Origin: Cyanophora paradoxa CCMP329
Lineage: Eukaryota; Plantae; Glaucophyta
Direction: 5' to 3'
NCBI GenBank assembly: GCA_004431415.1
Contig: QPMI01000029.1
Coordinates: forward strand, 62,001-126,000
Length of the DNA: 64,000 bases
Under the pieces are notes generated by a model, which was not told the DNA's origin, made no database searches, and saw only the letters and a list, made by a program, of their open reading frames with translations. This document shows, in pieces, positions 16,322-58,664 of the stretch. Each line of letters begins with the position of its first letter. Position 1 is the stretch's first letter. A program made the translations under genes and the position numbers.

Positions 16322-16549
16322 CCGTAAAACACAATAATATGACGGTCAAATTTATGTCGTTATAAAAACCGACGTCGACCCCGGCACGAAATTTTCAGGC
16401 TTGTATAGGGCGGTAAATTGGGGGGTAGCACTAAACACGCCCTACTACTAGGCTATGTCGTCCCCAAATTATGTCGTCATGTCAAGTTTTCGGCGACATA
16501 ATTTGGGGACGACATAATAAAGTGCAGACCTTAATATTCTGTTTTACGG
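16322..16549. mobile_element. 228-bp MITE, Tc1/mariner-type
   Basis: TA|CCGTAAAACACAATA ... TATTCTGTTTTACGG|TA (imperfect TIR, flanking TA). It has a 23-bp internal inverted repeat at 16454-16516 and is absent from the paralogous region near 6150. Confidence 0.8.
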
Positions 16550-22900: not shown

Positions 22901-25900
22901 ACGTCGTCATCACTGCGACGCACATTCTGCAGCCTTCGCGTGAGCGGCTGCGCGGCAACTTCGCCCTCACCATCCGGGACCCGCTCTGCCGTTCGCGATC
23001 GGCCTGCCGTTCGCTCTGCCACGCCCGTCTCCGTTGCGCTCACGCTCTGCTCTGCGCAGCGTCGCCGCCGCCGCCGACTCCCTCCCCTACTCCCTCGCCC
23101 TCCGTCCTTGCCACGCCCACCCCCTCCCCACACATAGGGATACCCCTGATCCAAGCCCTCCGGCCTTCGGCCTACAGGCTTGGATCAGGGGTATCCCTAT
23201 GTGTGCGCGTTTTAGGCACTAAGGTAGTAAGCATTTCTTTTAGGTCTTAGGGTATTAATTACGTCTTTTGGGCACCAGCAGGGAGTGGGTAGACAGGGTA
23301 GAGGGTTGTTTGTAAACTTTCTAAGGGAAATCTCTTCTCGCGGGAATTTTTACATACAACCCTCTACCCTCTCTACCCTCTCTACCCTCTCTCATCCATG
23401 TTCAAACCTCCTCTTCTCATGGTGTAATCTCTTTTTGATCACTGCCCCAAAACCAATAGCATACTTGTTTATCTCCTCCTCCAGCTCAAAAGCAATTAAA
23501 CTTGTATTCCTTTCTGCCTGTTTTCCACAGCTGAATATATCTATTGCCAACATGCCTTGATCACTGTAGCAATGAGCAGAGCAATGGCTTTCATCTAATA
23601 ATAATACTTGGGCAAATCCAGGGGGTGATTTGGTGCCATCAAAAATCTCAGCATGTTTGTGGACAACCTGTATTCCATATTTCTTGATGATGTCTTCACT
23701 GACATTCATGAGCCATTTAGAGAGCCCCACATGGTCGCTAATTGGTTGGCTGAATTGGAAATCAAGCATCACATGGTAACCTTTGGCAAGCATTTTGATT
23801 ACCAATAGAATAGAAAAAACAATACGATTGCTGGAGATTTAAGGCAAAGGATCACTTCCTCCAATGGGATTGTATAAATTTGTGGTTAGATATTGACCAT
23901 ATCTATTTCCTCTGGCTATTTCATCATTTCTTTCAGCATACATTATCACTGTGTAAGTCCCTTGCTGGGTAGCTCTTATAATATATTGGTCATCTTGTGT
24001 GTCAAGAAGTGGCAGTGAATGGAAAGCAAGTCCGAAATTATCTACTGGGACTACTTGGACAGTAATACGGGGTCTTGCTCCATCTGTTCTTCTACATAAT
24101 GCGTAAATATCAGCAGGCAACGTCTCAGTATATCTATAGTGATTTCCCAAAGGCTCCAAAACATCAAGAACAGCAGTCTGAAGGTTGATAATGATTGTGT
24201 TGATTTTGATAATGTAAGGCTCATTCATTCCCGGGACATATGTCCTGATTCTTGTATTCAGATCATCTGGATTGGGTTGATCATTTACTAATAAAGGCGC
24301 TCCAATAATTCCACCAACCCTTAAACCATCTCCAATATAGGCACCTCCTGACCTACATTTAATTGCTCCCCTTCTTGCTTCGTAGGCAAAATTGGTTACC
24401 TTGTTATCATCATTGTAACTATCAGGATCCCCATGAAATGCGTTGAAATTCGCATTTGTTACAAGAAGTTTAGTAGTTTTAACGACCCCATTATTTTTGT
24501 CGCATCTTAACTCTTTTAGTCTTAGCATGTGAGTGTCACCAAAAGTATTTAGGGTTGGTGCTATCTCTGTGGATTCCAGACCATCTGTATTATCAATAAT
24601 AGCATGCTGTAAGACGTGGTTAGCTGGAGCAGCTAATGATAGTTGCGCTGTTAAAATGCGCTCTGGTGGTGCTGGTGCTGCCATTTACTATACTGAAACA
24701 TAATTACGGAATGGGATCATTCGGGAATGGTTCATTATAGAAATTTGATACTTGCGAATCGGGATTTATACAGTTGGCAACCGCCCATGCTGCTTCATCA
24801 TTACGATATCCAAAAATCAATATATCATAACCCCCTACCTCTGATGCCCAAAAATCGAAACTGTTTGGTTGTGTGGCAGGATTTCTTGTGATCCATCCAC
24901 GCCCACCATGGCCTACTGCTTGAACAAAGAAAGTATAACCTTCTAATCCTCCATTCTGAGAGCGACACATAGAATACATTGCCTTAGGTAAAAGCTGATT
25001 AGCCAATTTCCAAGGTCCAGCAATACCTTGGGGTTGTGTGGCATCTTGCGTATTTACATTAGCTCTAATGATACCAAAAGCATACGGGGAATCCCCGCAT
25101 GGAAGAAACATGCGAATTCTTTGGGGATTATCAGCATGTTCAGGTAAAGTGTCCGGAAAATCATTGAAGGCAGCAGAAGAGCCAAGCATTCCCGATACTC
25201 TACAGCCACCACCAATTATTGCTCCTCCTGATCTTATAACAGCAGCAGCCCTTGTATTGTCAAATTCAAATGCTTTGATATCTACACCGTACGCATCAGG
25301 TTGTCCATTTGCTGATTGAAAATTCGCATTCGTTACAAGGAGCTGAGTTGTTTTTACCACACCCGAATTTTTATCCGCGCGTAGTTCTTTTACACGAATC
25401 ATGCTGTTTTTATCAAAAGCATTACCTGAATTTGCCCGTTCTGTTGATTCCATTCCACGAATTTCATCAGACACTTCGTGTTGTCTAAAATGAATTGCTG
25501 GACTCCCCAATGCGTAAACTGGTAATTGGACTCGATTATATTCGCCCATTACCTCTTTTATTTAGAAGGATAGAAAAATAAAGCTTCATCACGGAATTCC
25601 ATATGCTGTCCAGTGAATTGTAAATGTATATGTCGTATTTGCTGTAGCAGTCGCACCAGTAAGCAAGGTAACATACACTGTGGACATGGTTGAACTTGAA
25701 TTCGATAATCCCAGTTTATAGTCAAGCGCTTGGGATGTCACAGGGGTTCCCTCCATTATTAAAGTAATGACAGGAGGTTTCGTGTTGAATGCTGGGCTCC
25801 AATTTAAAATATAAGTGGCTTCTCCACGGCTATTGGCATTCAAAGGTCCTATACTCATCTGGAAAGTCCCAGATAGAAAGCTTTGCCTGATTTCATTCCA

Positions 25901-28900
25901 TGTCGGGATTTTACTTAGACTATTTGTAGTACCAGTGGCCACCTCATAGAAAGACCTTGCGTAAACATTGGTGTTCACACTGAGCTTGTCTACCAAAAGA
26001 TTTGCTGAGAGCTGAGTATATGCTTCGGGGTACGTGTATGGAAAGCCAAACCCATATTTCAGCTTGAAGTAGTATCTCATGAAACTCTTTTCAGTTGGAG
26101 ATAAAACCCGATTAAATATTACCACTTCGGCTACCTCTCCCACAAAGGAAGTAAATGAGAACTCCTTTATTCCGATGGTTGGTGAGTTTGACCATAAGAA
26201 AATTCCAGTAATTGCGGGAGATACATCTGCGCCATTCAAACCCATAGTCAGGGTTGTAGGGGTTAATTGAAAGTCAAATAATCCCCAAGAATTCAAGAAG
26301 CTTGTGGTTGAGACTTGTGTTAATGTGGAAGTGATAATGCCAAGGGAATTGCCATTAGTTGCTCCCAGTGTGATATACCTCCCGTAGGTGGGGTCACCTG
26401 TGTCATCATTTGTGACTGTAAAATGCGGCCGATTACCTGTGTCAGTGTGCTTTCGCACTGAAAATACAGTCATACCAGATGCAAGAATGTTTGATAATGC
26501 TGGGGTATATTGAACTCTATATCCGGCAAAGGTACTTGCACTGATTGCGTATTTATTTCCATTCAGTGCTGTCCCACTGCTTATTGAATACTTGGATGAT
26601 GAAGTAAAACCTATAGAACTCATATTTGGTAAAGCAAGTGGAAGCCCTTCTGCTCTGTTGACCAATGTTTCCAGTACTGTGCCATTGACATCGTTTGAAT
26701 TTGGATACCAGTGAAACACGCAATTGGATGTGAAAAGTGGGTTGGTATATGATAGCAACTGGTCAATTGGTGGCGATGTAGAAATTGGATAGAATTTGAT
26801 GGACTGCTCACCATTTACAATAGAAGGAGTATAAAGGTTGCTTGAAACTACCAGGTTTGATGTGATTGTACCTCCTGTTATGGGCAGATAGCTATTCAGC
26901 CAGTCCTTTGTAACATTTGAGGTAACAAGTTGCGGTGAGAATTTTTCAGCTATCAACCCTTGAACGATATTTGAAGTGGTAAATGGTTGAAGCCAGCTCT
27001 GAACAATGTTTGATGTGGGAATATTTGGTAGGGCCACATTGCTGTTCACAGTCAGCTTGTTCACTATAAGATTGGGGGTGGACACCTGTATGAACTCATT
27101 TGAGGTGTAGGCAGGGCTGATTTGAGGCACTGGGTTGTTCAGGCCATACTTTTGTGATAGATAGTAGCGAATAAATGCCTTTTCATCAGCAGACAAAGCA
27201 CGATTGTAAATTATTATTTCCGCAATTAGTCCAAAGAAGCTTTCTATCCCAATTTTTTGAATTTTGAGATTTGCTACTTCACTCAAATTGAAATTGCCTG
27301 ATAATGTAGGTGACAAATCAACACTATTGAAGCCTACTGTGGTGATGCTTGAAGTGACATGATAATCAAACAAAGCCCATTGGTCGTAGAAACTCGTGGT
27401 TATGGATGCTGTGGAAGTTGGTTGATACACTCCATTTTTTAGATAACTCGTTATCCCAATAGAATCTACACCTTTGGTTCCAAATCTGATATTTCTGCTT
27501 GATGTTTGGTCACTATAAATCATTAATTGAGCAGCAGCACTCATAGAGTCTGTGTAGTTCCTTCTCACACAAAATATCGTCATCCCATTGGTGAACGGGT
27601 TTGCTATATATGGATTTGGTTGAGCCATGTAGGTTATTGTTTCTGTCATCCCAAACACTTTTTTCCCATTGAGTAATGAACCACTCACCACAAGCGCCCC
27701 ATTTGATACTTTAAGAAAAGAAGGCAAAGCATTGGGTTGCCCAGATGCCCTATTGGTGAGTTCTGGTATTGCTGTGCCTGATGGCTCATTTAAAGGATAC
27801 CAGTGGAATACACAGTTTGGTGTAGACAGTGGATTTGTGTATGCTGAAAGGCGTTCCAAGGGAGGTATCAAGTTTTGGATTAGAACCAAGTCTATGGATT
27901 GGCTACCACTTCTTATGTTATTTGTGTAAAGGCTGCCCGAAACAGAAAGATTGGATGTGACAGTCCCTCCTGATTTGGGCAAATAGTTGCTCAACCACCC
28001 TTGTGTTATGTTTGAAGTCACGAAAGGGCTTATCCATCCTTGAACAACATTTGATGCTGTTAATGGTGCTATCCAATTTTGGACGACATTAGATGCTGTT
28101 AAAGGTGCTATCCAATCTTGAACTACATTGGAAGTAGTGAAAGGTTCTATGAGTCCCTTGACAGATGTTAAATCAGCCTTTGGAGCAACCCAATTCAGAA
28201 CTATGTTTGATGTTGGAATATTGGGCAATGAGACATTTGAGGTAACCGAAAGATTATCAATTACAATCTCATTGGATATTCTGACATGATTTACTTTGGG
28301 AGGAGGCTTAGGGACGAGTCCAGTAAACCCATACTTTTGTGCCAGGTAGTAACGGACCTCTTGTTTCTCATTTGCTGTAAGCGCTCTATTGTAGACAATT
28401 ATTTCAGCAAGAGGATGAGGAACACCAGATGTTCCATACAGTTGAACAAATTCCGTAGAGGGAATGCGGTAATCTCCTGGAATGCTTTGTAAATCTTGCC
28501 CATTAAAACCCCATGTTGTTCCAGTTGAGGAAGTATGAAGGTCAAAGATGCCCCAAGTATTCAAAAAATTTGATGGTGTATCAACATACTTTGGAGGAAT
28601 ATTTGCACCTAACCGCGTCATAGCCACACCTAATTTGTTAGTTCCACTGTTTCCATAGTTTAGCACACAGGTTTGCTGTCCTATATTACTGGTCGTTAGC
28701 ACCCAGTGATTAGTATTATTTGTGCTTGTGTGTTTGCGAACACTAAATACAGTCATACCCTTATCAAAGTATCCTGCGGGAAGCTGATTGTCTCTATTAG
28801 TTAAATCACGATAAGAATAATAAGGACTTGATTGATTAGGTATACCAAACTTATTTCCATTGATTTCAGCATTACTTGAAACATACAACCAAGAATTGGC

Positions 28901-31900
28901 AGATGCGCCAACTATATAGCGGTCAAGGTTGCTCAAACTGTTTGGAAATTCTGCCGCTCTATTATCCAGAGAATTGAGAACTGTATTCAGAGGTTCTGTG
29001 GGATACCATTGATATACACAGTTCGGAATTTCTTTGGGGTCATTAGCAGGAGGTATATAATTGAGCTTTATGGAGTGTTCACCAATGGTAATAGATGGTG
29101 TGTGTAGGTCACTCAGCCAGCCCTGAACTACATTCGATGCTGTTAAAGGCGCAATCCATTCTTGAACCACATTTGATGCTGTTAATGGAGCTATCCAATC
29201 TTGAACTACGTTCGATGCTGTTAAAGGCGCAATCCACTCTTGAACTACATTCGATGCTGTTAATGGAGCAATCCATTCTTCAACCACATTCGATGCCGTT
29301 AAGGGTGCTATCCATTCCTGAACTACATTCGATGCTGTTAAAGGTGCTATCCATTCTTCAACTACATTGGAAGTGGTTAAAGGTTCTATATTGGTATTGA
29401 TACTGTCTATGCTTTCTTGTATCTGTGTAATCTGGGCATTGATGGCAGTTATTTCTGCCTCTTGAAGGCTTGAACTTGTTTGGAAATCTTTGATAATAAA
29501 ACCACCTCCTGGTGCTGGTGCTGTATATTGGAGGTTGTTGGCTATAAGACTTCCTGTAACTCTCAGGCTGTTTGTTTGTAGAAGAAGTTTGTTAGGGTCA
29601 CTGGCGAAAGGATTGTCTAATGGCTCAGGATAGCCGTATTTTTGGAGGAGATAACTTCGTATGTTGTCCTTCACGATTTCTGTTGTTGGTTTAATAATCA
29701 CTATTAGCTCTGCTAAATCTTGTTTGGAGGTTGAAGAGCCAATACGACTTTCAGTAACAAGGTTATTGGGAACATGTTTGTAACATTTGAAACACTTCTA
29801 TTGCTACCATTGATCCCAAATGTAACAGTGGAAGGAGAGACTGTTACTTCATAGAGTGTCCATGTCGTCATTTCAGAGTATGTAATTTCTGCTTTTGCGT
29901 TACTTGGTGAAGTGCTTTCACCTAATCCTGCTGCTCCAACCCCATTAGAAACCTGAATATAACAAGTCGCACCATTGTTCCATTTATTGATGCTCCAATT
30001 TGTGGTTCCATAACTCAAAGATAAAACGTTCTCTACATTTGGAGGTGCTGTATCTGTGAATTTCGCGACGAAAAACACAGTTAAATGTTGCTGTGAAGTT
30101 TGGCTCATGAAAAGTTCACACTCAGCCCCCCACGTATTATAGGCTGAAAAGTTGAAGTTGATTGTAGGATACGAATTAAAATAAGGTTTGTTGTTAGGAC
30201 CTCCATTATTCTTAATTTGTGTCGAGTTCCCAGCAACATTACCAAACCCAAGAAGAAAATTCGGTGTCTCAGGGTTATTATCAAACCAAACGTCTCCTGC
30301 TCCGTTTCCAAGTCCACTCACTATCGTTCCATCTTTCATGTTGTCCCTTGCTCTGACCCAAACGAAAACATTAAGAACTGAAAGGACATTAAACGTTGAA
30401 ACATCCAAATAATCCAATTTGAAAGTGTTCTCATATATTTTTAGTTTGCTGTCAGTGTTTCCTTGATTGCTCACGTTAAGATTTCCTGTGATTGTTCCAC
30501 CTGATAATGGTAAGTAGTTCTCTAACAACGCTTCTGAATCTGCTATCCAACCCTCCACAACATTAGAAGTGGTGTAATCATTTAACCATCCTTTTACAAC
30601 ATTTGATGTTGTGCGATCTGTCAATAATGCTGCTACACCATTGGTGGTTGCTAAGTTCATCCCTGTTACTTGTAGTTCCTGAGTCTTGATGAGTAGTTTA
30701 TTATCATCTCTTGGTATTGGGTTTGAAGAGTCTTCTACAAATCCGTAGAACTGATGAAGATACCACCGTAGATTATATAATTCAGCAGCTGTTAAGGCTC
30801 TTGTGAAACAATAGAATTCGCACAGGTCGAATTTTGAGTATTGACTTCCCAAATATACATACTTTACATCATTTCGGGGCAGATGAGAACCATTTGTAAT
30901 CGAAAAGGTCTGTCTCTCTTTCGCATTAACACCCACTTTTACGGATGTGCTTGTGATTGTGATGTCATAGATTGTCCAAGAATCTACTTCGTCAATTGTG
31001 AGTGGAACCCTGAAAGTAGATTGGTCTAATTTACTGATGTTCAGAACGAAACCATCACCCCATTGACCTTTGGAAATACTCCAAATTTGCCCATTACTAC
31101 CAAGTGTAGAAGACCCATCAAACTGTAAAATAGGTTCAAGCGGTTCAGCGCTTCTTAACTTAATCACAAATGCGACAGTTATCCCTCCACTGAAATCGAT
31201 GGTTTCATAGCCTGCTGAATTTGTAGAAGTGAAGGAATAACGGAAAGTAGAGAAGCTATTTGTGTCTGCTACATCATAGAAGGGTTTGTTATTAGGACCT
31301 CCTGAACTCTTGAATACTACACTTCCTGACTGTATCAGTTTTTGAATAACATTAGCATTTGCTTTATTAACAAGCTCATAGACCAGTACATTATTTTCCC
31401 AAGCATCATCCAAACTCGCATTAAATCTTAGAAGGCAATGAGACAAACCCCCAACATCGAAATTTAAGAAGTTTAAAGGTGCTCTTGAAATCTCATTGTT
31501 CCCTATAACAATCTTATCCTTTACCTCCAATTCTCTATTGACTGTAAGATCACCTGTAATGGTGCCACCTGTCAATGGTAAATATTTAGCAAGTTCAGCA
31601 TCAAGCTCAGTCTCTGTAACATAGGGTATTAATGCTGCTGCCAGTGTTGTGGCATATTCAGTTTCTGTTACATAATCATTGAGTATAGTAGTTAATTCGG
31701 TTCCATCTATGTAATTCTTATTTTCTAAATAATCCTCTGTGACCACTCGTGATATATTTTCGTTGTGAATGTTTTTTGCTGCTGCTCTCTGATTTATTTC
31801 TAAAACACCTTGCTTATCAACATCATTATAGTTCGTTTTCTTCCACCCTATCTCACATTGCTTGTAATCGTCTCGATCTCCAACTAAATCATCAGGTAAG

Positions 31901-34900
31901 AGCCGTTCTCGGCTAAATATTAGCTTTGGTCTTGATCCATCAAAAGCGCTAACATCAGTCACATTAATCTGAAGAGTCGCATCTTTGTCTACATAATTAA
32001 TTGGATTGGCTGGAAGAGATGGTATAGGTGGTAATGTTGCTGTCATTGGGATGTCGTCAGGGTAGTAACTTGTTAAATAGATACCTGGTTTGGTGTCTTT
32101 TATTTCAACACCTCCACCAGCTGCCACTAAATTAACTCTTGTAGGTGGTCTAATATAGAGTTCGCCTTCCATTGTGGTTCCAGCATCTAATCCCCTACGA
32201 TTCACATAGTAGTCATTTAATTGTAATCTTTCTTCAATCTCAATATTTTGATAGAGACTTACACCAAGTGGAAAGTCTGTCAACATATTGCCTGCTGATG
32301 CGAAAGTAGGTTGCTGGTCGATTTCATCCCAATCGTGTCTGTGGTCTTCTGGTGGGAACAATTCTGGTACATCAATTTCGTCCCAAGTGTGTCTATGGTC
32401 TGCTGGTGGAAAGTCTTCTGGTATTCCATCGATTTCTCCCCAATCATGCCTATGATCCACAGGCGGAAATCTATCAGGTTTATTCTCGATTTCGTCCCAA
32501 TCATGGCCATGGGGATCAGGTGGATATGTTTGTGGTTTATTTCGAATGTCCTCCCAATCCACTATGAAATCGAATAGATCAGGTGCGAAACCATCAGGTA
32601 AAAGCTGCTCATCAAAAGGCTCGTAGCGATCATAAGTTACAAGATTTGGGTCGAAACCATCTGGTAAGACATTATCCTCTTCAAATCGCCTATCTTCAAG
32701 AGGTATAACATTTACATCTGGTGATAAAAGCTCCTCAGCTGGTTGTTTGTAATCTGTAAATACTGGTTTGTTTCTGACTTTTTCCCAGCTAACTATGTGC
32801 TGCCCAAAGGCTACATTTTCCTCTGCTGTGTATTCCCTCCCAGGTTGCTTCTTTGGTGTAAGGTCAGGTGGATCCCACGGAAGCGGAAAGGGGACAGGAA
32901 CAGGACCGTAATGCTCAAAGATTTCCCTTATAGTTTTCTCACTGACAAGCTTTTCACCATTGGCATACACATTGCTTCCATGGATATTTCGCCACTGCCT
33001 CGTCCTGATTCCAAGGTCTTTTGTGTTTGTGACCAAAGGTAAAAGGTGCCTATCCATTTCGACAAGATCAGGGTGTAAATGGATTGCTACTGGTTGAGTG
33101 GGGCTGCTGTTGATGGTAATTGATGGCTTTTTCTGGTGGACATCATTTGGAGTAAAAAACCCAAACGGCTCATTCCTCGCAAAGTCATATGTTATATCCT
33201 TGGGGTATACATCATTAGTTGAACAGACTTGATTCGTGTTCTGGAAATGGCCCACTTGTAATACTTGGGGAACCTCTGTTTTTGTGGTGCTGCCCTCATT
33301 ATAAATTCTTAAACCCGTGTTCTGTTTGCCCTGCTCATCTTGTACATTGAAAATCAAACGGCCACTATCACACCTTGATGGTATGTCTGGATGGGTTCCA
33401 CTTGGTTTGAGTCTTCTGGGTCTCTTTCTGGTTGCCTTGATCTCTGCTACTTGGTTGGCTTTCACATTGCCCAAACTAAAAGCTATACTGACATCCTCCT
33501 TGTCTGGATCGGTCTGATTTAAGGAAAGAGCATGCTCCCTTGATTGAGTCTTTGAAGAACTGTCAGAGCTGTGGTCGATTGATATTGAACCTTTAACTTT
33601 TATATTATCAAAGTTCACATGCTTTGTGCTGCTGGAATTATCATCTTGAATTGTTTCCAGATTAGGGGGGTAGTTAAAGCTCATGGCTTTTACTATATGG
33701 ATTTATAAAATTCCTTATAAGTATTAGATGCCTCTCAAGGTCGTTTTAGCATTGTCAGGAGGCGGAGCAAGGGGCATTATCATTACCAGACTGCTCAAAG
33801 AAATCGAAAATCGAACTGGCAGGCGAATCATTGACCTTGTGGATCTTGTGAGTGGAACTTCCACGGGTGGGATCATTGCCATTGGGTTGAACATCAGGCA
33901 TCCAGATAGGGCAGGCGAACCCAAACTCACAGCCAGTGATTTACATAATATTTACCTCACTCAGCTGCCCTTGATTTTCGCGAATCCTCGAAATATAATC
34001 GAAAATGCCCTTTTTAACACCAAGTATGATGTGGCTCCTTTGGAAAGCGCAATCTATTCTGTTACTGGCGAATCTCTCATTCAAGATTCCTTAAAGGACA
34101 TTGTGATTACTTCGTTTGATACTCAGTACATGAAACCTATATTTATCACAAATGATAACAACTATAACTTTCTGCCCTGTAAAATAGCAGCAAGGGCTAC
34201 CTCTGCTGCTCCCACCTACTTTTCTCCTGTGAGTATAGTTGATTTTAATCGAGGGGTTACTGCTTGCCTTATTGATGGTGCTATTTCAGGAAACAATAAC
34301 CCAAGTGTGTGTGGCTATAGCCATGCGAGGAAGATTTACAGTGATGATGATGACATTATAGTTATAAGCATCTCTTGTGGGGAGGTAGACCCATATTTAG
34401 AGTCTGATTACTTCGGCTATGGTTATGAGACTGTGAATAGTTGGGGCATTCTCTCATGGATTGCCTCAACAGATGGAAGCCCATTGATCAACATGCTCAT
34501 GGCAGCAAGTGAGCTGTCAGCTCTTGACAAAATGGAGGAGTTGCTACCTTACAACTACGATCAGGATTATGGGAGGTACTATAGGCTATCTGTTCCTCTT
34601 CCAAATCACATAGTCAAGTCCCTTGATGATACCTCTAAAATCCCCGACATGCTTTCGTTCACTGAGACATACATAGCAGCAAACAACACCATGATTAATA
34701 AGCTTTGCGATTTGCTGGTAGCAAACTATGAGTTAAAAAACCCATCAAAAGCTTATATCTCTTCCACTCTCACCCTGTCACCACCTTTGGATGCTAATTG
34801 GTACAAACTTGCTGATGATGCTTTTACTGCCTCCTCCTCTGTGATAGGTAAAGAGCCCCACATGGCTCGACCTTCATCATTTGGCTGGGAAGCTGGGGCA

Positions 34901-37900
34901 TTTGCTCCAGAGCAGATATGGGAGACCCCCACTGAGTACCTTCAAGTTGCTTTCCCATATACTTTTGAGCTCTCTTCAGTGGTTGCCTATGGGTCAGGGG
35001 ACACCAATGCTTTTATAAAGACTTTCAATGTGGCTACATCAACTAATGGGGTCAACTGGTCTTTTATTCGAGCAGAAGGGCAGAACAAAACATTTGTTTG
35101 TGAGAATATAAACAATGCTAATAATTCCGGCGATGTAGCTTTATTAAATGGTTACCCTCTCACCATCAAGGATGCTTTCTACATAGGGTTCTCTTTGAGA
35201 ATCAAGTATGTTCGCATTTATCCCCTTGTCTATGTGAATGCTCCCACAATGAGAGTTGATTTTACAGGTGCCTTTATTCGATAAACTCGAGCTGAAAAGA
35301 ATTGTCAATTCCGTTCATGTCAATGATGTCACCAAAGTAGTCTCTAAACTCAACTGTTAATTCCCTTACCACCAGATGTCGGTCATTAATTCGAATAAAT
35401 TCCCCATGCTCACCATTATAGTAAATATAGCCTCCTATATCCTTGCTTAATTGGAGTCTCAGTATGGCGCCTTGGTTTTGTGGCTGTGATTTTGGGACTA
35501 TATTATGTCTGCTGGCAAAGGGAGCAAGTTCTTTGACATGTAAATAAAGGTACTGCTCAGCATTCATATCTGCCATCTTATTGCTGTAATAAACATATCT
35601 AAGAGGTGTGGATGAAAGTCTGGATCCCGAAAAGGTAGTTCCCCACAAGGGGTGATTGAGTGTGATAGGTTTGCCATCATACTTTAGAAAATTCTCAGGG
35701 CGATATGGAGATTGAGAGGGCGAATTGTCATCCATAAATGAAGACTGGAACTCAGTTGAGCTTAAACCCAATAGCTTACCAATGCGCTTATTGCTTGCTT
35801 TTATACGGAAAAATCTGTTACTGTAAAACTCCACTTTATAAGTGGTTGGATTGTAGAATAATTTGAATTCGAAAGCAACTGTTTTTCCTGCTATAGTTTC
35901 CTCATAGAACACATAGTTCAATCCATAGTTGTATGGTTGGGTGACCCCAAAATGACCCTGATTGATATAACCGGTTGGCAGAGGAGAGATGTTGTAAGTT
36001 ACTGTTTCAGTGACAGAACTATCCTGATAGGTGAATTCCACTATTAAATGATCTGTTCCACACTATTGTAAATGCTGTTTGGAATTTCTGCGTAAATAAC
36101 CCTACACTCTCGAGGTCTCTCTACTGGTGTTGTGAGGGCAACCCTGTAAGAGTTTTCGGTTTCACCTTGGCTGCGATCCCTGCTATCAACATTGACAAGC
36201 CGGTTCATTTTAATATATGAATATAGATAAAAGGAGAATGCCCGTGGATTACATTGAGGTGAGTTCTTTTAATACAATCTCTGGTGACGGTCCTACTTCA
36301 AGCTTTATAGCTCGACTTCCAAACATATATGAGAATGTGAGGGCTGTCAGGCTGGTCTCGGCCGAATTTTATAATAGTATCCCTATGGTGAGTGGTGAAA
36401 CGCAACCAGGGGATATTACAATTGATAATTCATTCAGCATTTTTTGGAGTGAAGAATTCGATGGTGCTGGCATTGATGGCATTCCAACTACTCGACCAGC
36501 GGCCGGCTTTGAACCTTGGAAGCAATTAATTATAAGCCGCAAAAAACCCATTCAAAGCCACCAGCAATTGGTAAATGTAATTAATGCGAAATTCGATGAT
36601 AGAGAGCCGGAACCATCTATTCGCTGTAAATGGGATGAGTCACTAAAACGAATTATATTCCACTCAGAGAAACCTTTCTATCTAGCCTTCTCTGTTGCTG
36701 GAAATCCAAACCAGAAAACGATCCAAAAGTTACTGAGCGCTGCCCGATTGCTTGGTCTTGATCCCGGAAGATATGGAAATTCCCCAATCCAATCACAGGT
36801 TTATAATGCTCTTACTGATGGCATCTTTACTGGTGAACGGGTGAATGGTATTATATCTTCGTTTGAGCCTGAAAAGACCAGGGACAGTGTTTTATTTGTC
36901 AGAGTAAAAGAGTTGGGTGATCTGGTTCAGTGTGGGGATGGTCTCCTGACTGGTTACTTCCATAAAATAGTAGTTCCTGACAAGGACTATGGTGAGCATG
37001 TGGTTTACAATTCAACAGAATCTCACCCACTTTACAAGTACTATAACAAAAAAATGGGTTTGTCTACATTCTCTGTGGATATAGTAAATGCTATAAACGA
37101 ACCAATCGATTTTGAGGGTCAACCTGTCCACCTCACATTTGAAATTCGATATGGGGAGGAGCCAGCAGGCGACCCTGTCTATGAATACTTTAAGATGCGG
37201 ATGTCACAAAGTCATCCAACATATCCAATCATTGCGAGTTTTGGGTAAACACAAGGTTCATTCGTAATTTTTTTATGTTACAGTATAATAAAAGAGAAAA
37301 TCATGGATATTACGTCGACCCTCCAGCGCCTTTCGTTGAAAGAAGCCCTAACAACCCAGAGGAGGCCAAGGCCTTCTTTCTGGATAACTCCCTAATGCTT
37401 GGTCTTGAATCCAAGTCGAAGCCCGTTCTTGTTGTTGTGAACCCGAGCAATACTTTTGAAAATAGTGTTGGAAATCGCATTTCATTCAAACTCCCTCGCT
37501 ACAATTTCTGTGGCAAACTCGAACTTGCCTTCGACCTTCCAGCTATCACTTTTGGTGATGCTGATCTTGTTCGGAATGGGTACACTCGCCCAGTTGGTGC
37601 TTTGGTTCAGCGACTTGAAATTACCTATGGGTCATACACCTACCATATCCCTTCTGATTTCCTTGCTCATTTCCCTCTTGTCTATTATAGTGAGGATCAG
37701 CTTGCCAAAAAGAAGCGATCAATGGGCATGCTTCACGGCATCCCCGCCCATGGAACCAACCGACTTGGTGGCTCATTCTTTGTTGAAATTCCTGTGCCTT
37801 GGCTAAACCACTACCTACCTCTTGGTGCTCTGTCTGGTGAAATGGTAGTAACTGTTTGGTTCAAGGATGTAGGGAAGGGTTATGTTGAGACTTCTTATGG

Positions 37901-40900
37901 TGGTCGTACTCTTCCTAAGGCTGGGGACACAGCCATTGATGGGGACAAGGATGATGGGCTTGGCGTCGCACCTGCTGAATCTGTGCTGGCACATGTTGGC
38001 CAAAACATCACCACTTTCAATCTTGGTGCGCCAAACGTTGAAATTAAAATTACTTCTCCTCGCCTTTATATGTATGCTGTTAATGTGTCTGATGAGCTTT
38101 TCGCTACTGTTATTGAGAAGGTAAAGACAACTGGCATGGCTATCCCTGCTCTGGATATTGGATTTGTGGATGTCAGTGATTTGAAAGCCAAGGGTCTTGC
38201 CCAACCCAATCGAGTTAACCTCTCCCAAATATCAGGTCTCGTTTATGCTCTGCTTGTTTCAGTTCGTGATAACGCTAATGTTGACAAAGCTAATGGTTCC
38301 CACAGTGTACTTAAGACCTACTCCAACTCCAAAGATATTACTTTCACTGTGGAAATTAATGGTCAACGTCTCTATGCCACTGAGCCCATTCCACTGCTCA
38401 AGGGTGCTGAGCTGATTGCTGATGTCTTCAAATGCTCTAATATGGATAAGGTTGCTGATCGCTATGTTCTTTCAGGGCTTCCGTTCTGTCTTGATGGTGA
38501 GAAGGCAATTCGCAATGTTGCCCAGTCTGGCTATGTTGACCTGACCAATTCTTCATCTTCATTCCTCACTCTCTACATGCCCACTGACAAGGTTATTGAT
38601 GTCAATGTTCGCGCTCTCATGCACAGCTTTATCATAGTGGACAAGGACGGGCTGAGGCGAATCAATCTATAAACCATATTCAGTCACATCGTATTATTTT
38701 TATCTGGTTCTTTATAGAAGGAAGCATGGGCGACTTGGACGAATTTAATGCTGGTGAGATGATAAATCCCCCTTTCCGCGTTTTGGCAATTGGCAAATCT
38801 GCTACTGGTAAATCAGAGGCTGTCAAGTACTGGCTCAAGCAGCTACATGATGCCAAAAAGATTGATGTCGTTTTAGTGGTGAGTGGAACAAGCTTCAATC
38901 ATTTCTGGGATAAGGTCGCGACATTACAATTGGGGAAATGGGACGCCCCTTACATTGCTAAATTGCTGGATGAAAGGCAAGAGAAAATAGAAAAGGGGGA
39001 ACCTGTAAACCAATTATGTGTGGTATTGGACGATCTTATTGATAACGAAATAGTTGACCTAACAAGAGACAAAATAATTGGATCCTTGTACAGTAGAGGA
39101 AGACATTCGAAAATATCTATTATCTGTATCACACAAAAGCTAAGGAAAGTCTCATCGACCATTCGCGTCAACTCAGATTATGCTATGTTCCTAAGCGCTG
39201 CCAATAGAAAGGAGCTTGAAGCCATTGAGGAAGAATACAATATAATGCGGGACAAAGATGTTTTCTATAAAATGTTTGAAGAGTACGTACATTCCTATCA
39301 GTTCCTAATTTGGTCATCCGCAGATTATTCTGTAAAATATTTCGTAGATAAAGCGGATTTGGTCAAAGATTTCCCATTTCCACGGTTCCACAGGAAGCCA
39401 AAAAAGAAAGAAGACGAGCTTAAACCACCAGAGAAAGAAGAGGGGCGCAAAGAAGTGAAAAGCCAAGTTCATAGTAATAAGTTAATGCGATATAAACGCG
39501 GTCTATAAAAATATCTCTCACTTTAATAAAGACACAATGCCCCCCAAACGCAAAATAGGCATCCCTGCTGGGGCTGTTGGTTATTCAGGTGGTGGTAACA
39601 ATGGCTCCATTAACACAGACCCGCTTAAATTCAATGGAATGAATGAGATAAAGCCCTCACAGCAGCAAGAGGATCCCCTTAATGCTGCCTATGAGGAATC
39701 CTTTGATGACAAAGCCCCACAGACGTCCACCAGTGATCAGCTCAACATCTCCCCTGAAGCCTCCAAAATGAAGGCTGTGGGTGAGGGTGCCAGGCGAATT
39801 ATTGGTGCTGCTGATGATAAAGGTCTTGGGCTTCAAGATCTATCACTTACTCGCAAAGGTGAAGGCCTCAGTAAAGAATCAGACAAGGTTATCCAGTCTA
39901 TGGCGGGTGAAGTCACATACAAGACCGCTCCCACCCAGAATATTCATAGAGTTCCCAAGGCTCAATGGGACGAAATGACTGCCAAACTTAAAGATTTGGA
40001 AGCCAAATCAAGTGCTTTGGAGCAGTATGTAACTGAGAAGAGAGAGAGGTCCAAACTCAAGGAGATGCTTAGAAAGGAGGTGTTCAAAATGGGGATCACT
40101 GGAATTCCAGACAAACAGTTTATTGCCAAGAAAGAGACCCAAATCGATGAGCAAGCTGTTGATGAAATGAAAACAAAGACCCAAAAGGGGACTATTGAGC
40201 CAGGTGCTACAAAGGCAGAGGTGGACAAAGGCGTAGCCCCCACAGTGTATAAACGACGGGTTTGGCTTTGAAAGCGTTTTTCTATAGATATTATAAATGG
40301 AGGATACCATTAGTTTGGTGGAGTTCACTGTCGATAGCCCTGTGACTGAGAGTTATATTAAAAACGCTTTAGCAAACCAAAAAAGATACAGGGAAGACCC
40401 AGAATACAGAGAGTTTAAGAAACAGCAAGCCTTGGCATCATACTATCGCCGAAAGGCACAAAAAGAAGCAGTGAGGCCCATAGGGAGGCCAATTAAATAT
40501 TATCAGACTACTGAGAGCAGCAACTGAGTTATTTTGTCTCGTTAATAGTAAAATGTGGCAATGGCTCCAACAATTGCTGGATATGTTTCATATACATGTG
40601 ACCAGCAATTATAAATGTAGCTGTTGTGATACTACTATTGACGTCAGCATTGGATCTTCCTCCCCAAGTGGATCCAGGAGTGGGTCTCCCTATGATGTGG
40701 TGCTGAGGACAGGGTCAACTGAGGGGCAAAGGGTAAGCTTGGAGAGCATTGAAGAGGTGACAGGGGAGCAATTTGCTCAGGCTGTAAGCAGCGCTTGGGA
40801 TGAGTACCAAGGAAACCGTCTACATTGAACACATTATCTGCCATCAGGGAGGGTATTAATCTCGTTTCCAAGCATGAGGAGATCGTTTGATATTTTTTGT

Positions 40901-43900
40901 AAAGCTGCTTTGATATGTGGAGACAGGGGGGCTATTCGATGACCAAGGTTGTACAGTTCTATAGAGAGGCGATGTATGGAGTCACTCAATTCAGGGCTTG
41001 GAGACGTCAGTGCCAGATGTGAGAGTTCAAAGGAGACCTCTACAAGGCGAGTATGGATTGGGGTTGTCATAATAATCTACTTTTAGGTAGCATAAAAATG
41101 CGAAAGAGGCGGCTCTGCGTAGAGCTTGATGAGAGCTTCACAGGAAAAAAAAGAGCGCTCAAAACGGCCAATCTGGTGCCGAGATATTCACGTTTGAAGT
41201 TCCTTAAGTGGCTCTAATCGAAAGTTTTAGAAACATTCTTATAGAGCTCTATAAGGAAATAGCTGCGCAATCTCAGCGTTGCGCGGCCATACAAGGAGCA
41301 ATCTTAGGCTTGCGCAGCCACACACTGAGCAATCTCCGGCTTGCGCGGCCATACAAGGAGCAATCTCAGGCTTGCGCAGCCACACACTGAGCAATCTCCG
41401 GCTTGCGCGGCCATACAAGGAGCAATCTCAGGCTTGCGCAGCCACACACTGAGCAATCTCCGGCTTGCGCGGCCATACAAGGAGCAATCTCAGGCTTGCG
41501 CGGCCATACAAGGAGCAATCTCAGGCTTGCGCAGCCCGCGTGTATATGTATATGATATATATGAAAAAAAACAAGTTTCGGTAAAAACTACAGCGCCGTG
41601 ATCGCCATGACGCGGCGAGTCCGGAAAGCTATGTTATATATATATGTCATGTGACATTATGATATATCATATACATATATCATAATGGCATATATATGGT
41701 ATATGCGAACCTGAAAATATTCGTAGCTCGTCACCAGATCATCGTAAGGCTATGATGTTGGGGTCTATAAATATCTACTTTTTACGAGGAATCCAACGGT
41801 GATAGTGCTAGGGGCTGAATCGGTGATTTTAAGATGGGGTACTTACAATTTTCATGACTTTCTCCAGCTAAAATTTGCTTTGTGGAGTAGGGCATACCCC
41901 TCCATGCCATAGTTATCACATATGATGTTCTCATATGCCTCCATCAATCTGCGCAATTCTTTACTTTTCTGGGGGTTGATGTCTTGGGGGGACTTCCTAT
42001 ACTCATCATAATACTGCTGCCTGACTGCCTCCCACAGTTCAACCATGTCCTCAAGGGGGATGTCATCATAGCTGCTATCTGAGTCCATGGTGGTACTGGT
42101 GGGCTTATGTAAGACTGTTTGGGGGTTGGGGGTGTCAAGAATCAATTTTTGGTGGGCACTTGGGGCTTGGCTCTTCACCATGCTATATGAAGATGTCCTT
42201 AAGTGCTGGTGGCCTACAAGCAAGTGGGGTGGATTTTGGGGGGTTAGGGACTCAAGGAGAAGTTAGGGGGGTTTCTGCCAACTGACGTCTTGTTGTTTAG
42301 GTTACCATTCTCAGTCTGGAAGGTGGGGTTTAGGGGGGATTAGGGGTTGTGGAGTGGGTAGGGGGTATTCTCTCACAACTCTATATATTTCTGGCTTGTT
42401 GCTTAAAAATGAAAAGATTTGGAGGCTATAGGAGTTATATATCCCCCCTAACCCCCTAACCCCCCACATGTATACATTATTACCATTTCTGGTCATAAAA
42501 CAACCAGAAAGTAAAAACGATCCCCCCCAGATCCCCCCCAAACTTCTGGAAACCCCCCAAACCCCCCAAACCCCCCAAACCCCCCCAGGCCTATCATGAG
42601 CCCCCTAATCCTCCTCCTCTTCCAAAAATTCCACCAACAGCCCACAGCTCTTGAAGTAAGCCATCATCTCATCCCACTTGAAGACATAACACTCCCTTCC
42701 ACAATACTTGGTAGGCCTCACATATTCCAGTCCAGCCATCTCAATGTAGAACTTCCTTGAGCTGAATTCATTCTTGAATTTATTAATTGTAATGAACTGC
42801 TGGAACCACTCCACACCTGTTGCCTGTTCTCAGTCCTTGGTGTATCCTTGGTAATCTTTTGGGTGTCTACCAAATCCTTGGTGAACAAGGCAGTGACAGG
42901 AACACTTGCTTGTTGGGCAAGGTAGTAGCTGTTGGTCATTGGCCTGTCAGCATACCAGTTCACATCTGTGACATCCACCTTGTTTTTCAAGTAAAGGAAT
43001 ACCATGTGCTGGTTTCTTGGCTCCTTCAGCCAATTACCCAGTGACTTGAAATATTTCATGTCACCCTTTTTCTTGTCACTCACCTCCACAATCACAAACC
43101 TTCTATCTCCAGCCTCCACTTTGATTGGTAGGGTGTTGTTGGTAGTAAATATGATCCTGGCGAAATTCCTCACCTCATGAGAATTGACATACTTAGCCTC
43201 AATTACAATTTCTCAGCAGTGATCATGTCCTTGAGGGCATCACTGTTTGTGAAGGTGTCTTTGCCACTTGCCTCATTCACAGTGATAAGTAGTTTGTGCT
43301 TTCGCTGGTGGGCAAAGTTTCCAAATAAGTCCTTCAGTGGGTTGGCTGTGCTGAAAGCCAAGTCCCCACCCAGTATTTCATTTTGAAACCAATCCAATAT
43401 GATGTTCTTCCCACTCCTTGCTTTCCCTTGAAGATGATTGAAATCCCATTCAACTCCCCAGGTCTCTGAATAATGTGGGCAAAGTACTTCAGTATGTAAT
43501 TGAATGTAGAAGCATCTTCACCACTGAGAATCATCATGTGGTCAAGGAATGGGCTAACATCTTCCTCAGTTACATCAGGAGGAATATCCATTTCACTCAC
43601 ATCCATAAGCTCACCTTTCATACCAGCATAGGCATTAAACACCTTGGCAGTGGTGGAAGCAGATTTTACAGGAGGTGGGAGGAAGTCCAAGTAATCATAC
43701 CTTGTGGCAGTCTCATCTTTCGCCCACTTTTTGATGAAGTTATGAGGCTCCATCTTCATAGACATTAGGTCAAACTCTGTGTACTGAATGTGAGGGTATA
43801 CATCCTCAGCCAAGCTTTTGAAGCTGGTTGTGTCATACTTCTTGGTATGATCATTCCAAGACAAGACAAACCCAGGCTTCATAATGTGAGCAAGTCTGGC

Positions 43901-57762: not shown

Positions 57763-58664
57763 ATGTGTGTGAATGGGCACGCATAATCGCATTCTATACA
57801 TATGTGTTCACGTATATGCGTACTTCATCCTGCTCCCGCAAACGGCGCACTTCCGCAGAGTGCTCAATTGCAAGACGGTCGCAGACGGCCGACAGGCCAT
57901 GGCCCGAGCGGATCCGGAGCCCCGGAGGGCAATTGCAATCCTCATAGAAAACATTTTGGCTGAAGCGAGGGAACGGGAAGCAAGCTGGGAGAAGCTTAAG
58001 CCCTTCGGTCTTCGTCCCCCCTTGCAATAATGCGAACCTCCTAGTTCTATTTTGTTCGCACACGCTAGCACTGTTCGTGCCTGTCAGAGGCATCACATCG
58101 AAAATCGTAGCCCAACCATCTTGCTTTCCAGGGTCGAGAATGGATACCTAGGTCCAAAACGGTTTGCTTCAATCTCATTTTGCATTTTAATTTTCCACAA
58201 GATAGGCACGGTCCTAAGGGTCGTTCCTTTCCCCAAGACCAATCATGAGCTGACAGTAAGCTTCAAGGCTTCTCTTCAGCAATATTGTGTTGCAATTGCG
58301 ACGTCCCGATCGCGATCCGACGTCGACAGTCCAGAGCTCGGGGCGCGCGTGGCAGCTACATCATCCCGTATACGCTAGCTATAGCTAGCTTTAGGTAAAC
58401 ATAGCTAGCTTCAGGCTGCATCTAGTTCTGTTGCAGCGAAACTCGAGCTCCTTGTCGCAGACGCGGACTCTAGATCTGAGAGCTGGACGATTGAAAACTT
58501 GAAGAAAAAGTGACCAAGCGCTAGAAAGATCGATCAATGAAATGCTAAGTGCAGCGAATAGCTTACCGAAAGCATTACAGCTCAAGAAAGTCCCTCTGCA
58601 TGTTACTTTGAATAGCCTCGCAGATCAGAGCGCGCAATCCGTATCTAGCAAGATATTTGAGCGC

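What the first reader, a model, noticed from the sequence alone, without database searches (positions are those of the whole stretch)
23130..23204. Polinton-like virus with parvovirus-style hairpin termini
Seen: each end is a 75-nt palindrome, ACACATAGGGATACCCCTGATCCAAGCC-CTCC-GGCCTTCGGCC-TACA-GGCTTGGATCAGGGGTATCCCTATGTGT (mirror at 50905-50979). It has a perfect 28-bp stem, a 4x4 mismatch bubble and a GGCC stem capped by a TTC/GAA triloop. Known: C(GAA)G mini-hairpins are unusually stable in DNA. Polinton TIRs are normally simple, non-fold-back and start with AG, whereas bubble-containing terminal hairpins typify rolling-hairpin replicons. Inference: this lineage may self-prime from, or resolve, hairpin telomeres rather than rely only on protein priming. 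The 28-bp end motif occurs four times, giving the integrase alternative inner and outer ends.
Basis: partly seen in the sequence, partly recalled or inferred. Interest (0 to 1): 0.9.

Follow-up and report, generated by a model that had tools for sequence, protein, structure and literature searches.

The report
Algal provirus with fixed-orientation hairpin ends
A 28-kb Polinton-like virus integrated in a protist genome ends in the same 75-base fold-back palindrome at both ends, and its one fixed orientation suggests it likely works as a protective cap and start signal on the exposed 3' strand during copying rather than as a parvovirus-style flip-flop telomere; similar palindromic ends were reported in a 2026 preprint.

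Summary
A 27,850-bp provirus (23130-50979, 6-bp TSD) encodes a double-jelly-roll capsid, A32 ATPase, RVE integrase, a PolA-like primase/SF3 helicase and a protein-primed PolB, and ends in identical 75-nt palindromes (z -11.9). Short-read contigs confirm the left junction in 4 of 4 runs and reveal a sister subfamily whose hairpin has a different bubble and a two-sided change in the tip stem, so the fold is likely selected. Both window ends, and the one sister end that can be phased, put the C(GAA)G mini-hairpin on the 3'-terminal strand; no inverted (flop) form was seen, and no HUH nickase is encoded. The PolB keeps its terminal-protein-releasing protease and polymerase motifs but, like an intact relative, has lost proofreading (kept in 79 of 80 others). 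Best reading: a 3'-strand cap and primase/helicase signal, with ends regenerated by protein priming, not flip-flop. Orientation-conserving self-priming (MVM-left-end style) stays open. Terminal palindromes and the hairpin-priming idea are already in a 2026 Halocafeteria preprint; new here are covariation, strand asymmetry and co-occurrence with pPolB. New variant of a known kind; interest 0.55.

The parts
23124..23129 (.). left target-site duplication (6 bp)
   Evidence: identical to 50980-50985
23130..23204 (.). left terminal palindrome: 28-bp stem, 4x4 bubble, 4-bp tip stem; TTC loop on the 5'-terminal (+) strand, GAA loop on the 3'-terminal (-) strand
23130..23278 (+). left TIR (149 nt; first 83 nt identical to the right TIR, then 8 mismatches)
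23283..23382 (.). left subterminal hairpin with arms of 9-nt units
   Evidence: z -8.7; covaries with the right one
23392..23793 (-). S-adenosylmethionine decarboxylase gene
   Evidence: Pfam PF02675 E 1.9e-11; a contig in 1 of 4 runs skips it (joint 23283-23837)
23839..25549 (-). two paralogous 281-aa ORFs of unknown function
   Evidence: no Pfam hit
25589..33684 (-). two long LamG-containing, repeat-rich ORFs, likely virion fibres
   Evidence: Pfam PF13385 weak, below cut-off; 39-bp arrays; ORFs
33728..35284 (+). patatin phospholipase fused to an F5/8 (discoidin) domain
   Evidence: Pfam PF01734 E 2.9e-19, PF00754 E 2.2e-06
35274..37248 (.). two divergent penton-like (minor capsid) ORFs, the minus-strand one broken
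   Evidence: C-terminal motif recalled from PLV pentons; no Pfam hit
37275..38672 (+). double-jelly-roll major capsid protein
   Evidence: AF2 pLDDT 62.8; Foldseek PBCV-1 and SGIV capsids E about 1e-17; nearest sequence P0001, 57%
38726..39508 (+). A32-type packaging ATPase
   Evidence: Pfam PF04665 E 8e-11
41263..41679 (.). 31-bp tandem array (8.7 copies) followed by an AT-rich inverted repeat; candidate internal origin, not supported by skew
42605..44871 (-). PolA-like (TVpol) primase-polymerase fused to a D5/SF3 helicase, in 7 pieces in this copy
   Evidence: pieces; 20 full-length relatives, most with DUF5906 or D5_N; profile hits PDB primase 6k9c E 2e-33; 'TVpol' label recalled from the motif
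45820..48911 (+). protein-primed PolB with TP-region, vOTU, EndoVII-like and polymerase motifs, exonuclease degenerate; at least 3 frame breaks in this copy
48923..50289 (+). RVE (DDE) integrase, in 2 pieces
   Evidence: Pfam rve E 0.015, below cut-off; D, D and E motifs read in the ORFs; 6-bp TSD
50690..50782 (.). right subterminal hairpin
   Evidence: z -9.4
50831..50979 (-). right TIR
50905..50979 (.). right terminal palindrome; GAA loop on the 3'-terminal (+) strand
50980..50985 (.). right target-site duplication

Best explanation
Both ends of this integrated Polinton-like virus carry the same palindrome in one orientation, with the GAA mini-hairpin on the 3'-terminal strand; that strand likely folds back when the end is unwound or displaced, would act as a nuclease-resistant cap and loading signal for the element's primase-helicase, and the end is likely re-copied from the very terminus by terminal-protein-primed PolB, which would keep the orientation fixed. 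Shown: the palindrome, its orientation, the sister variant, the two replicases, the retained vOTU and polymerase motifs, the lost exonuclease. Inferred: folding in vivo, protein binding at the tip, protein priming. Whether PolB copies the whole strand (mavirus-like, helped by the helicase) or only patches a 3' overhang left by internal priming (Streptomyces-like) is not decided.
For: Fold is selected: sister hairpin in 4 of 4 runs has a 3x3 bubble and tip stem GGGC/GCCC instead of GGCC/GGCC, a C-G to G-C two-sided change, loop kept (loose ends). Orientation fixed in what could be seen: both window ends; a 114-nt contig in X9 runs unbroken through stem, bubble, stem and 41 nt of inner TIR at 4.9 times the junction-contig depth; no strand-change joint and no other letters listed in 23158-23176. 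Tip on the 3' strand reads CCGAAGG (window) and GCGAAGC (sister, complement): both are named as exonuclease-resistant mini-hairpins, the first at the ssiA site used by primase RepB' (PMC13037366, passages). 2 of the 4 C(GNA)G hairpins with a 4-bp stem in the 27.9-kb element are these termini. PolB keeps the vOTU Cys motif (invariant in 12 of 12 rows) and His (80 of 80 relatives, window and P0002); the element starts with a short AC repeat suited to slide-back initiation (mechanism recalled). No HUH motif in 127 ORFs. In Halocafeteria, terminal palindromes go with primase-helicase replicases.
Against: A blunt 28-bp fold-back with a paired 3'-OH is itself an ideal primer, so self-priming is hard to exclude. 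The priming residue of the terminal protein was not identified; the N-terminal region matches only unnamed clusters and lacks the SGW-type motif seen in 3 of the 11 other rows, which several other rows also lack. Orientation was phased for one sister contig in one run; 219 pieces and 28 loose ends were not displayed, contigs drop rare variants, and integrated copies may not represent free genomes. The partner base of the sister's outer-stem change is not displayed. Fourfold-site skew follows the coding strand in 16 of 19 ORFs and shows no origin switch, so the patching variant lacks support. Exonuclease loss accompanies helicase gain in mavirus too (10.1101/2024.03.18.585575, passages), so it says nothing specific about hairpins.
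Confidence: 0.45

Rival explanations
1. Orientation-conserving hairpin replication: the 3' hairpin self-primes, a head-to-head junction forms, and the bubble makes one arm the cut site (as at the MVM left end), with the PolB's EndoVII-like domain, the integrase or a host resolvase as nuclease, so only one orientation is released.
For: Paired 3'-OH on the GAA strand at both ends; asymmetric bubble in both subfamilies; EndoVII D-H-x-H and C-N residues kept; asymmetric dimer-junction resolution and a single left-end orientation are described for parvoviruses (PMC1185569, passages); hairpin priming proposed for Halocafeteria elements.
Against: No HUH nickase motif; EndoVII His residues are in 78 of 80 relatives, so not special to this lineage; the protein-priming module is retained; no inner-stem-inner junction contig among the rows shown.
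Confidence: 0.25
2. Excision handle: in the chromosome each palindrome extrudes as a cruciform whose base is exactly the host-virus junction; a junction resolvase (the EndoVII-like domain or a host enzyme) cuts it to release the provirus, and strand-displacement fill-in restores the original orientation. The hairpin serves release, not replication.
For: Outer stem base coincides with the TSD boundary at both ends; no tyrosine recombinase found by Pfam among 28 ORFs; EndoVII-like motifs kept.
Against: No empty-site or hairpin-scar contig seen: the left junction contig is unbroken in 4 of 4 runs; GAA strand asymmetry is not required by this model; EndoVII domains are common in relatives whose ends were not examined.
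Confidence: 0.13
3. By-product: the palindrome arose by fold-back repair of a broken end, is copied passively and is homogenised by panhandle repair; it has no function beyond holding an integrase site.
For: The Halocafeteria authors name accidental annealing as an alternative; templated repair alone gives perfect outer stems and identical ends (identity to position 83).
Against: Templated copying of the outer stem does not explain a two-sided change inside the unpaired centre that keeps a 4-bp stem and a C(GAA)G loop, nor recurrence in five subtypes of another host.
Confidence: 0.1
4. AAV- or poxvirus-type flip-flop telomeres: each round of terminal resolution inverts the hairpin.
For: Bubble-bearing terminal hairpin.
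Against: Same orientation at both window ends and in the phased sister contig; no strand-change joint; no HUH motif.
Confidence: 0.07

Closest known systems
Palindrome-ended endogenous virophages and PLVs of Halocafeteria seosinensis (bioRxiv 10.64898/2026.07.28.741278; abstract, sections 7 and 10, passages read; figures and supplements not seen)
   Same: Palindromes inside the TIRs, adjacent to TSDs; RVE integrase; primase-helicase replicases; hairpin priming proposed.
   Different: There 52 nt in the example and preferentially with non-pPolB replicases; here 75 nt beside a pPolB that keeps vOTU and polymerase motifs. The text read gives no orientation, bubble, GNA tip or covariation data.
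Mavirus-type replication module (10.1101/2024.03.18.585575, abstract and passages)
   Same: pPolB with TP and vOTU but degenerate exonuclease, plus an SF3 helicase and RVE integrase.
   Different: Here the polymerase is a long Polinton-type enzyme with an EndoVII-like insert, the helicase is fused to a PolA-like domain, no maturation protease was found, and the ends are palindromic.
Streptomyces telomeres and end patching (PMC4513846, abstract start and passages)
   Same: Fold-back palindromes with G:A-closed loops on the 3'-terminal strand; terminal protein; hairpin-binding primase.
   Different: Several short packed palindromes there, one long stem plus a second hairpin 150-290 nt in here; Tap/Tpg relatives not seen; no internal origin shown; the element integrates.
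Parvovirus hairpin telomeres (PMC1185569, passages)
   Same: Bubble-bearing terminal hairpin able to self-prime; left ends reported in one orientation.
   Different: No HUH nickase motif; double-jelly-roll capsid, 28-kb genome, identical ends; no flop form seen.
Glaucophyte PLVs with patatin-discoidin fusion (PMC12220804, passages and a supplement look-up)
   Same: Patatin-F5/8 fusion, TIRs, rve integrase; nearest capsid protein is a Cyanophora paradoxa protein.
   Different: The words 'palindrom' and 'hairpin' do not occur in that paper's main text.

Membership tests
Polinton-like viruses (PLV) | double-jelly-roll major capsid protein | tested here: met
Polinton-like viruses (PLV) | A32-type packaging ATPase | tested here: met
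   Pfam PF04665
Polinton-like viruses (PLV) | minor capsid (penton) protein | tested here: inconclusive
   two ORFs with a recalled penton-like C-terminus; no Pfam hit; not folded
Polinton-like viruses (PLV) | 14-40 kb, TIRs, TSD from an integrase | tested here: met
   27,850 bp, 149-nt TIR, 6-bp TSD
Polinton-like viruses (PLV) | placement of the capsid protein in a named PLV clade | not tested
   only 6 proteins matched the profile; no reference set on hand
Polinton/Maverick sensu stricto | protein-primed PolB and RVE integrase | tested here: met
Polinton/Maverick sensu stricto | Ulp1/adenain-type maturation protease | tested here: not met
   no Pfam hit in 28 ORFs; motif scan of 127 ORFs hit only an off-frame 74-aa ORF
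Polinton/Maverick sensu stricto | termini beginning 5'-AG (feature recalled, not found in a paper read) | tested here: not met
   termini begin 5'-AC
Polinton/Maverick sensu stricto | proofreading exonuclease in pPolB | tested here: not met
   Exo II Asp replaced and Exo III deleted in the window and P0002; 79 of 80 relatives keep all four carboxylates
Parvovirus rolling-hairpin replicon | terminal hairpin with mismatch bubble able to self-prime | tested here: met
   (predicted fold)
Parvovirus rolling-hairpin replicon | HUH nickase (Rep/NS1) | tested here: not met
Parvovirus rolling-hairpin replicon | flip and flop orientations at resolved ends | tested here: inconclusive
   only one orientation seen, but few ends phased and contigs drop rare forms
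Parvovirus rolling-hairpin replicon | single-stranded packaged genome | not testable with these tools
   no virion DNA
Streptomyces-type end patching | G:A-closed hairpins on the 3'-terminal strand | tested here: met
   C(GAA)G tip on the 3' strand at both ends
Streptomyces-type end patching | internal bidirectional origin | tested here: inconclusive
   tandem array and AT-rich repeat present; skew shows no switch
Streptomyces-type end patching | terminal protein covalently on 5' ends | not testable with these tools
   TP-vOTU region present; linkage not testable
Palindrome-ended PLVs/virophages (Halocafeteria type) | palindrome in the TIR adjacent to the TSD, with RVE integrase and a primase-helicase replicase | tested here: met
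Palindrome-ended PLVs/virophages (Halocafeteria type) | same integrase or replicase clade as those subtypes | not tested

The most novel reading that the evidence does not exclude
A double-jelly-roll integrating virus caught between protein priming and hairpin telomeres: the GAA-capped 3' hairpin self-primes, the bubble directs one-sided resolution by the polymerase's own EndoVII-like domain instead of an HUH nickase, and the same palindrome, extruded as a cruciform at the host junction, is what releases the provirus from the chromosome. That would be a rolling-hairpin system without Rep and an answer to how RVE-integrated Polinton-like viruses get out.
Probability: 0.2. Interest if true: 0.85.

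Novelty: new variant of a known kind. Interest (0 to 1): 0.55.

Why it matters
How Polintons and PLVs copy their ends and leave the chromosome is largely unknown (stated in the Halocafeteria abstract). This family turns a recent speculation into a test: on the order of ten copies per genome (interior depth 11-17 times the junction contig), at least two hairpin variants that covary, a strand-specific mini-hairpin of a type tied to primase sites, two replicases, and many public runs of the same organism (19 runs holding half or more of the stretch). Counting bubble orientation on long reads separates flip-flop from orientation-conserving mechanisms at once; end chemistry of free DNA separates protein priming from self-priming. 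It also extends palindromic ends to a second, distant host lineage and to an element that still has pPolB.

Tried and rejected
No whole genome is held for this window, so other copies could not be read directly. The 28-mer and a gapped stem pattern found nothing in viral contigs; the gapped pattern gave 28 metagenome loci, none with BLASTN or TBLASTN similarity to the element: chance matches or bacterial repeats. Capsid, PolB and ATPase scans of viral contigs gave no relatives; P0002 gave one distant locus, L083, without a long palindrome. Of 55 IMG/VR loci examined, 2 had a palindrome within 400 nt of a locus end: L030 near a true contig start, L038 at a flank boundary inside its contig; short-read contig ends are not genome ends, so this survey is uninformative. 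Internal origin: skew test negative. 'PolB only patches ends because it lost proofreading': weakened by the mavirus precedent. 'Inner ends as alternative integrase ends': rejected on geometry and the TSD. Rfam: no match. First capsid model unusable (pLDDT 37). Atlas searches: unnamed clusters only. One host exon gave no Pfam hit. No RNA holder listed. Earlier findings of this scan: none. The right junction and the phasing of the window's own hairpin variant in reads remain unchecked.

Full report
1. Observation. The 28-mer occurs four times in 64 kb, none expected by chance; the 75-mer folds as DNA at -37.3 kcal/mol, z -11.9. CTCCCC lies directly outside both palindromes, G+C drops from about 61% to about 42% between them, so the element is 23130-50979 (27,850 bp). 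The TIR is 149 nt; its first mismatch is at position 84 and all 8 mismatches lie beyond the palindrome (chance 0.003 if spread evenly, boundary chosen after the fact). A contig from host DNA into the left palindrome is in 4 of 4 runs laid (at most 3 samples). The right junction was not checked in reads.

2. What the element is. It encodes a double-jelly-roll capsid protein (model pLDDT 62.8; Foldseek PBCV-1 and iridovirus capsids, E about 1e-17), an A32 ATPase, a patatin-discoidin fusion, AdoMet decarboxylase, two penton-like ORFs (motif recalled), an RVE integrase (weak Pfam hit; DDE motifs by eye), and two replicases. No maturation protease was found. It is a Polinton-like virus. Its capsid has few relatives (1 hit; 6); the nearest, P0001 at 57%, is a Cyanophora paradoxa protein, so the host is likely a glaucophyte or similar protist. 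Glaucophyte PLVs with the patatin-discoidin fusion are in print (PMC12220804, passages). Interior contig depth is 11-17 times that of the junction contig; the tool warns this is no copy number, and G+C bias may inflate it, so 'on the order of ten copies'.

3. The replicases. One gene (42605-44871, minus, 7 pieces) has 20 full-length relatives, most with D5-type helicase domains; their profile matches a solved primase. I call it PolA-SF3 (TVpol) from its recalled motif. The other (45820-48911) is a Polinton-type pPolB (1568 relatives). Against its intact closest relative P0002 (44-56% over three stretches) and 80 other long relatives cut to the vOTU-to-motif-A region (81 of 89 could be cut), the vOTU His and EndoVII-like residues are kept, but the Exo II Asp is replaced and Exo III is deleted: 27 residues between two anchor motifs in the window and in P0002, against 118-127 in 72 of the 77 relatives measurable; 79 of 80 keep all four exonuclease carboxylates. 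Exo I may survive two residues out of register in the window but not in P0002. The vOTU Cys motif is invariant in 12 of 12 rows. Krupovic and colleagues report that exonuclease loss accompanies helicase gain in mavirus and that vOTU likely releases the terminal protein (10.1101/2024.03.18.585575, abstract and passages). So protein priming looks retained, and lost proofreading does not prove a mere patching role. Elements with two replicases are known (10.64898/2026.10.13.758929, passages and section 13).

4. The hairpin in other copies. All four runs show the same loose end before 23177: a sister hairpin with a 3x3 bubble and tip GGGC-TTC-GCCC, against GGCC-TTC-GGCC in the window. One tip pair changes on both sides and the loop is kept. 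One outer-stem base also differs; its partner is not displayed (the X9 contig has 6 differences, 4 listed positions fall in its span). In X9 the contig is 114 nt, exactly stem + 17 + stem + 41 nt of inner TIR, unbroken at 4.9 times junction depth. As the stem (28) is shorter than the 31-letter words, an abundant inverted form should have broken it (inference). No strand-change joint and no other letters in the bubble were listed. Limits: 219 pieces and 28 loose ends were not shown, rare variants are dropped, and the window's own variant was not phased in reads. Within these limits the orientation is fixed, with TTC on the 5'-terminal strand and GAA on the 3'-terminal strand. The 3'-strand tips read CCGAAGG and GCGAAGC; a review names only GNA loops as forming exonuclease-resistant mini-hairpins and places CCGAAGG at the ssiA site used by primase RepB' (PMC13037366, passages). 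Two of the four such hairpins in the element are the termini. A second hairpin lies 150-290 nt inside each end with 7 two-sided changes in 30 pairs, 6 of them in two copies of one 9-nt unit, so perhaps only two events.

5. Mechanism. Shown: structure potential, covariation, one orientation, strand asymmetry, a primase-helicase, a pPolB with priming module, no HUH motif in 127 ORFs. Inferred: when an end is unwound or a strand displaced, the 3'-terminal strand folds, resists exonucleases and marks the end for the primase-helicase; pPolB then copies from the terminus with its terminal protein, which preserves orientation and delivers full palindromes at both ends to the integrase (0.45). A Streptomyces-like variant, in which an internal origin leaves 3' overhangs with G:A-closed hairpins that are patched from a terminal protein (PMC4513846, passages), fits the anatomy, and a 31-bp array with an AT-rich repeat is a candidate origin, but skew follows the coding strand in 16 of 19 ORFs with no switch. 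Rivals: self-priming with one-sided resolution (0.25; parvovirus left ends, PMC1185569, passages), cruciform excision handle (0.13), by-product (0.10), flip-flop (0.07). The inner copies of the 28-mer face the wrong way to serve as alternative ends of the element.

6. What is known. A July 2026 preprint reports palindromes inside TIRs next to TSDs in four virophage subtypes and one PLV subtype of Halocafeteria, preferentially with non-pPolB replicases, and proposes hairpin priming (10.64898/2026.07.28.741278; abstract, sections 7 and 10, passages). Its figures and supplements could not be seen and may hold orientation or loop data. Casposon TIRs also hold internal palindromes (PMC4046053, passages). 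Searches of the open library found no report of fixed orientation, a GNA tip or covariation in PLV ends; passages of PMC11296320, PMC12747079, PMC12721341, PMC6431247 and 10.1101/2022.07.28.501842 added none. Subscription papers were not searched. 'Polinton ends start with AG' and slide-back initiation are recalled.

7. Verdict. Real feature, known kind since mid-2026, new variant: palindromic ends beside a pPolB, in another host lineage, with evidence for a selected, strand-specific structure and against AAV-like inversion. Interest 0.55; a Rep-free hairpin replication and excision system has probability about 0.2 and would rate 0.85.

Noticed in passing
window 23283-23382 and 50690-50782: A second hairpin inside each end, diverged between the ends but with 7 two-sided changes among the first 30 pairs (6 in two copies of one 9-nt unit). 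Both lie downstream of outward-pointing genes, so a transcription stop signal is as likely as a replication role.
   Followed up: partly
window 23205-23278 versus 50831-50904: The commonest contig in the runs carries, at four positions, the alleles of the window's right inner TIR (table 3); the left end with its AdoMetDC gene looks like a minority type, yet both hairpins are identical. This hints at a chimeric element whose terminal 83 nt were made alike end to end.
   Followed up: partly
window 45820-48911: PolB has higher G+C at fourfold sites (0.53-0.54) than the structural genes (0.23-0.40), suggesting a separately acquired module.
   Followed up: no
window 35274-50289: Frame breaks in the penton-like, primase-helicase, PolB and integrase genes; those inspected by eye against P0002 look like single-base losses, mostly in base runs, as in long-read consensus errors. 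Decay is not excluded.
   Followed up: partly
window 42228-42587 and 50294-50568: G-rich then C-rich arrays of short units forming imperfect inverted repeats downstream of the primase-helicase and integrase genes.
   Followed up: no
L030 58-248 and 393-540: A free IMG/VR contig with a related primase-helicase has an 84-bp perfect palindrome with a 23-nt centre near its start and inverted arrays of short units further in, a similar two-tier layout; whether it is a genome end is unknown.
   Followed up: partly
window 16454-16516: A separate 23-bp perfect stem with a 17-nt loop in host DNA, perhaps a small transposon end.
   Followed up: no
window 1-21000 and 51000-58000: Host DNA is about 61% G+C with many short introns and three related blocks about 8.1 and 10.6 kb apart; the provirus seems to sit inside a multi-exon gene with a subtilase-like motif read by eye (Pfam gave no hit on one exon).
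   Followed up: partly
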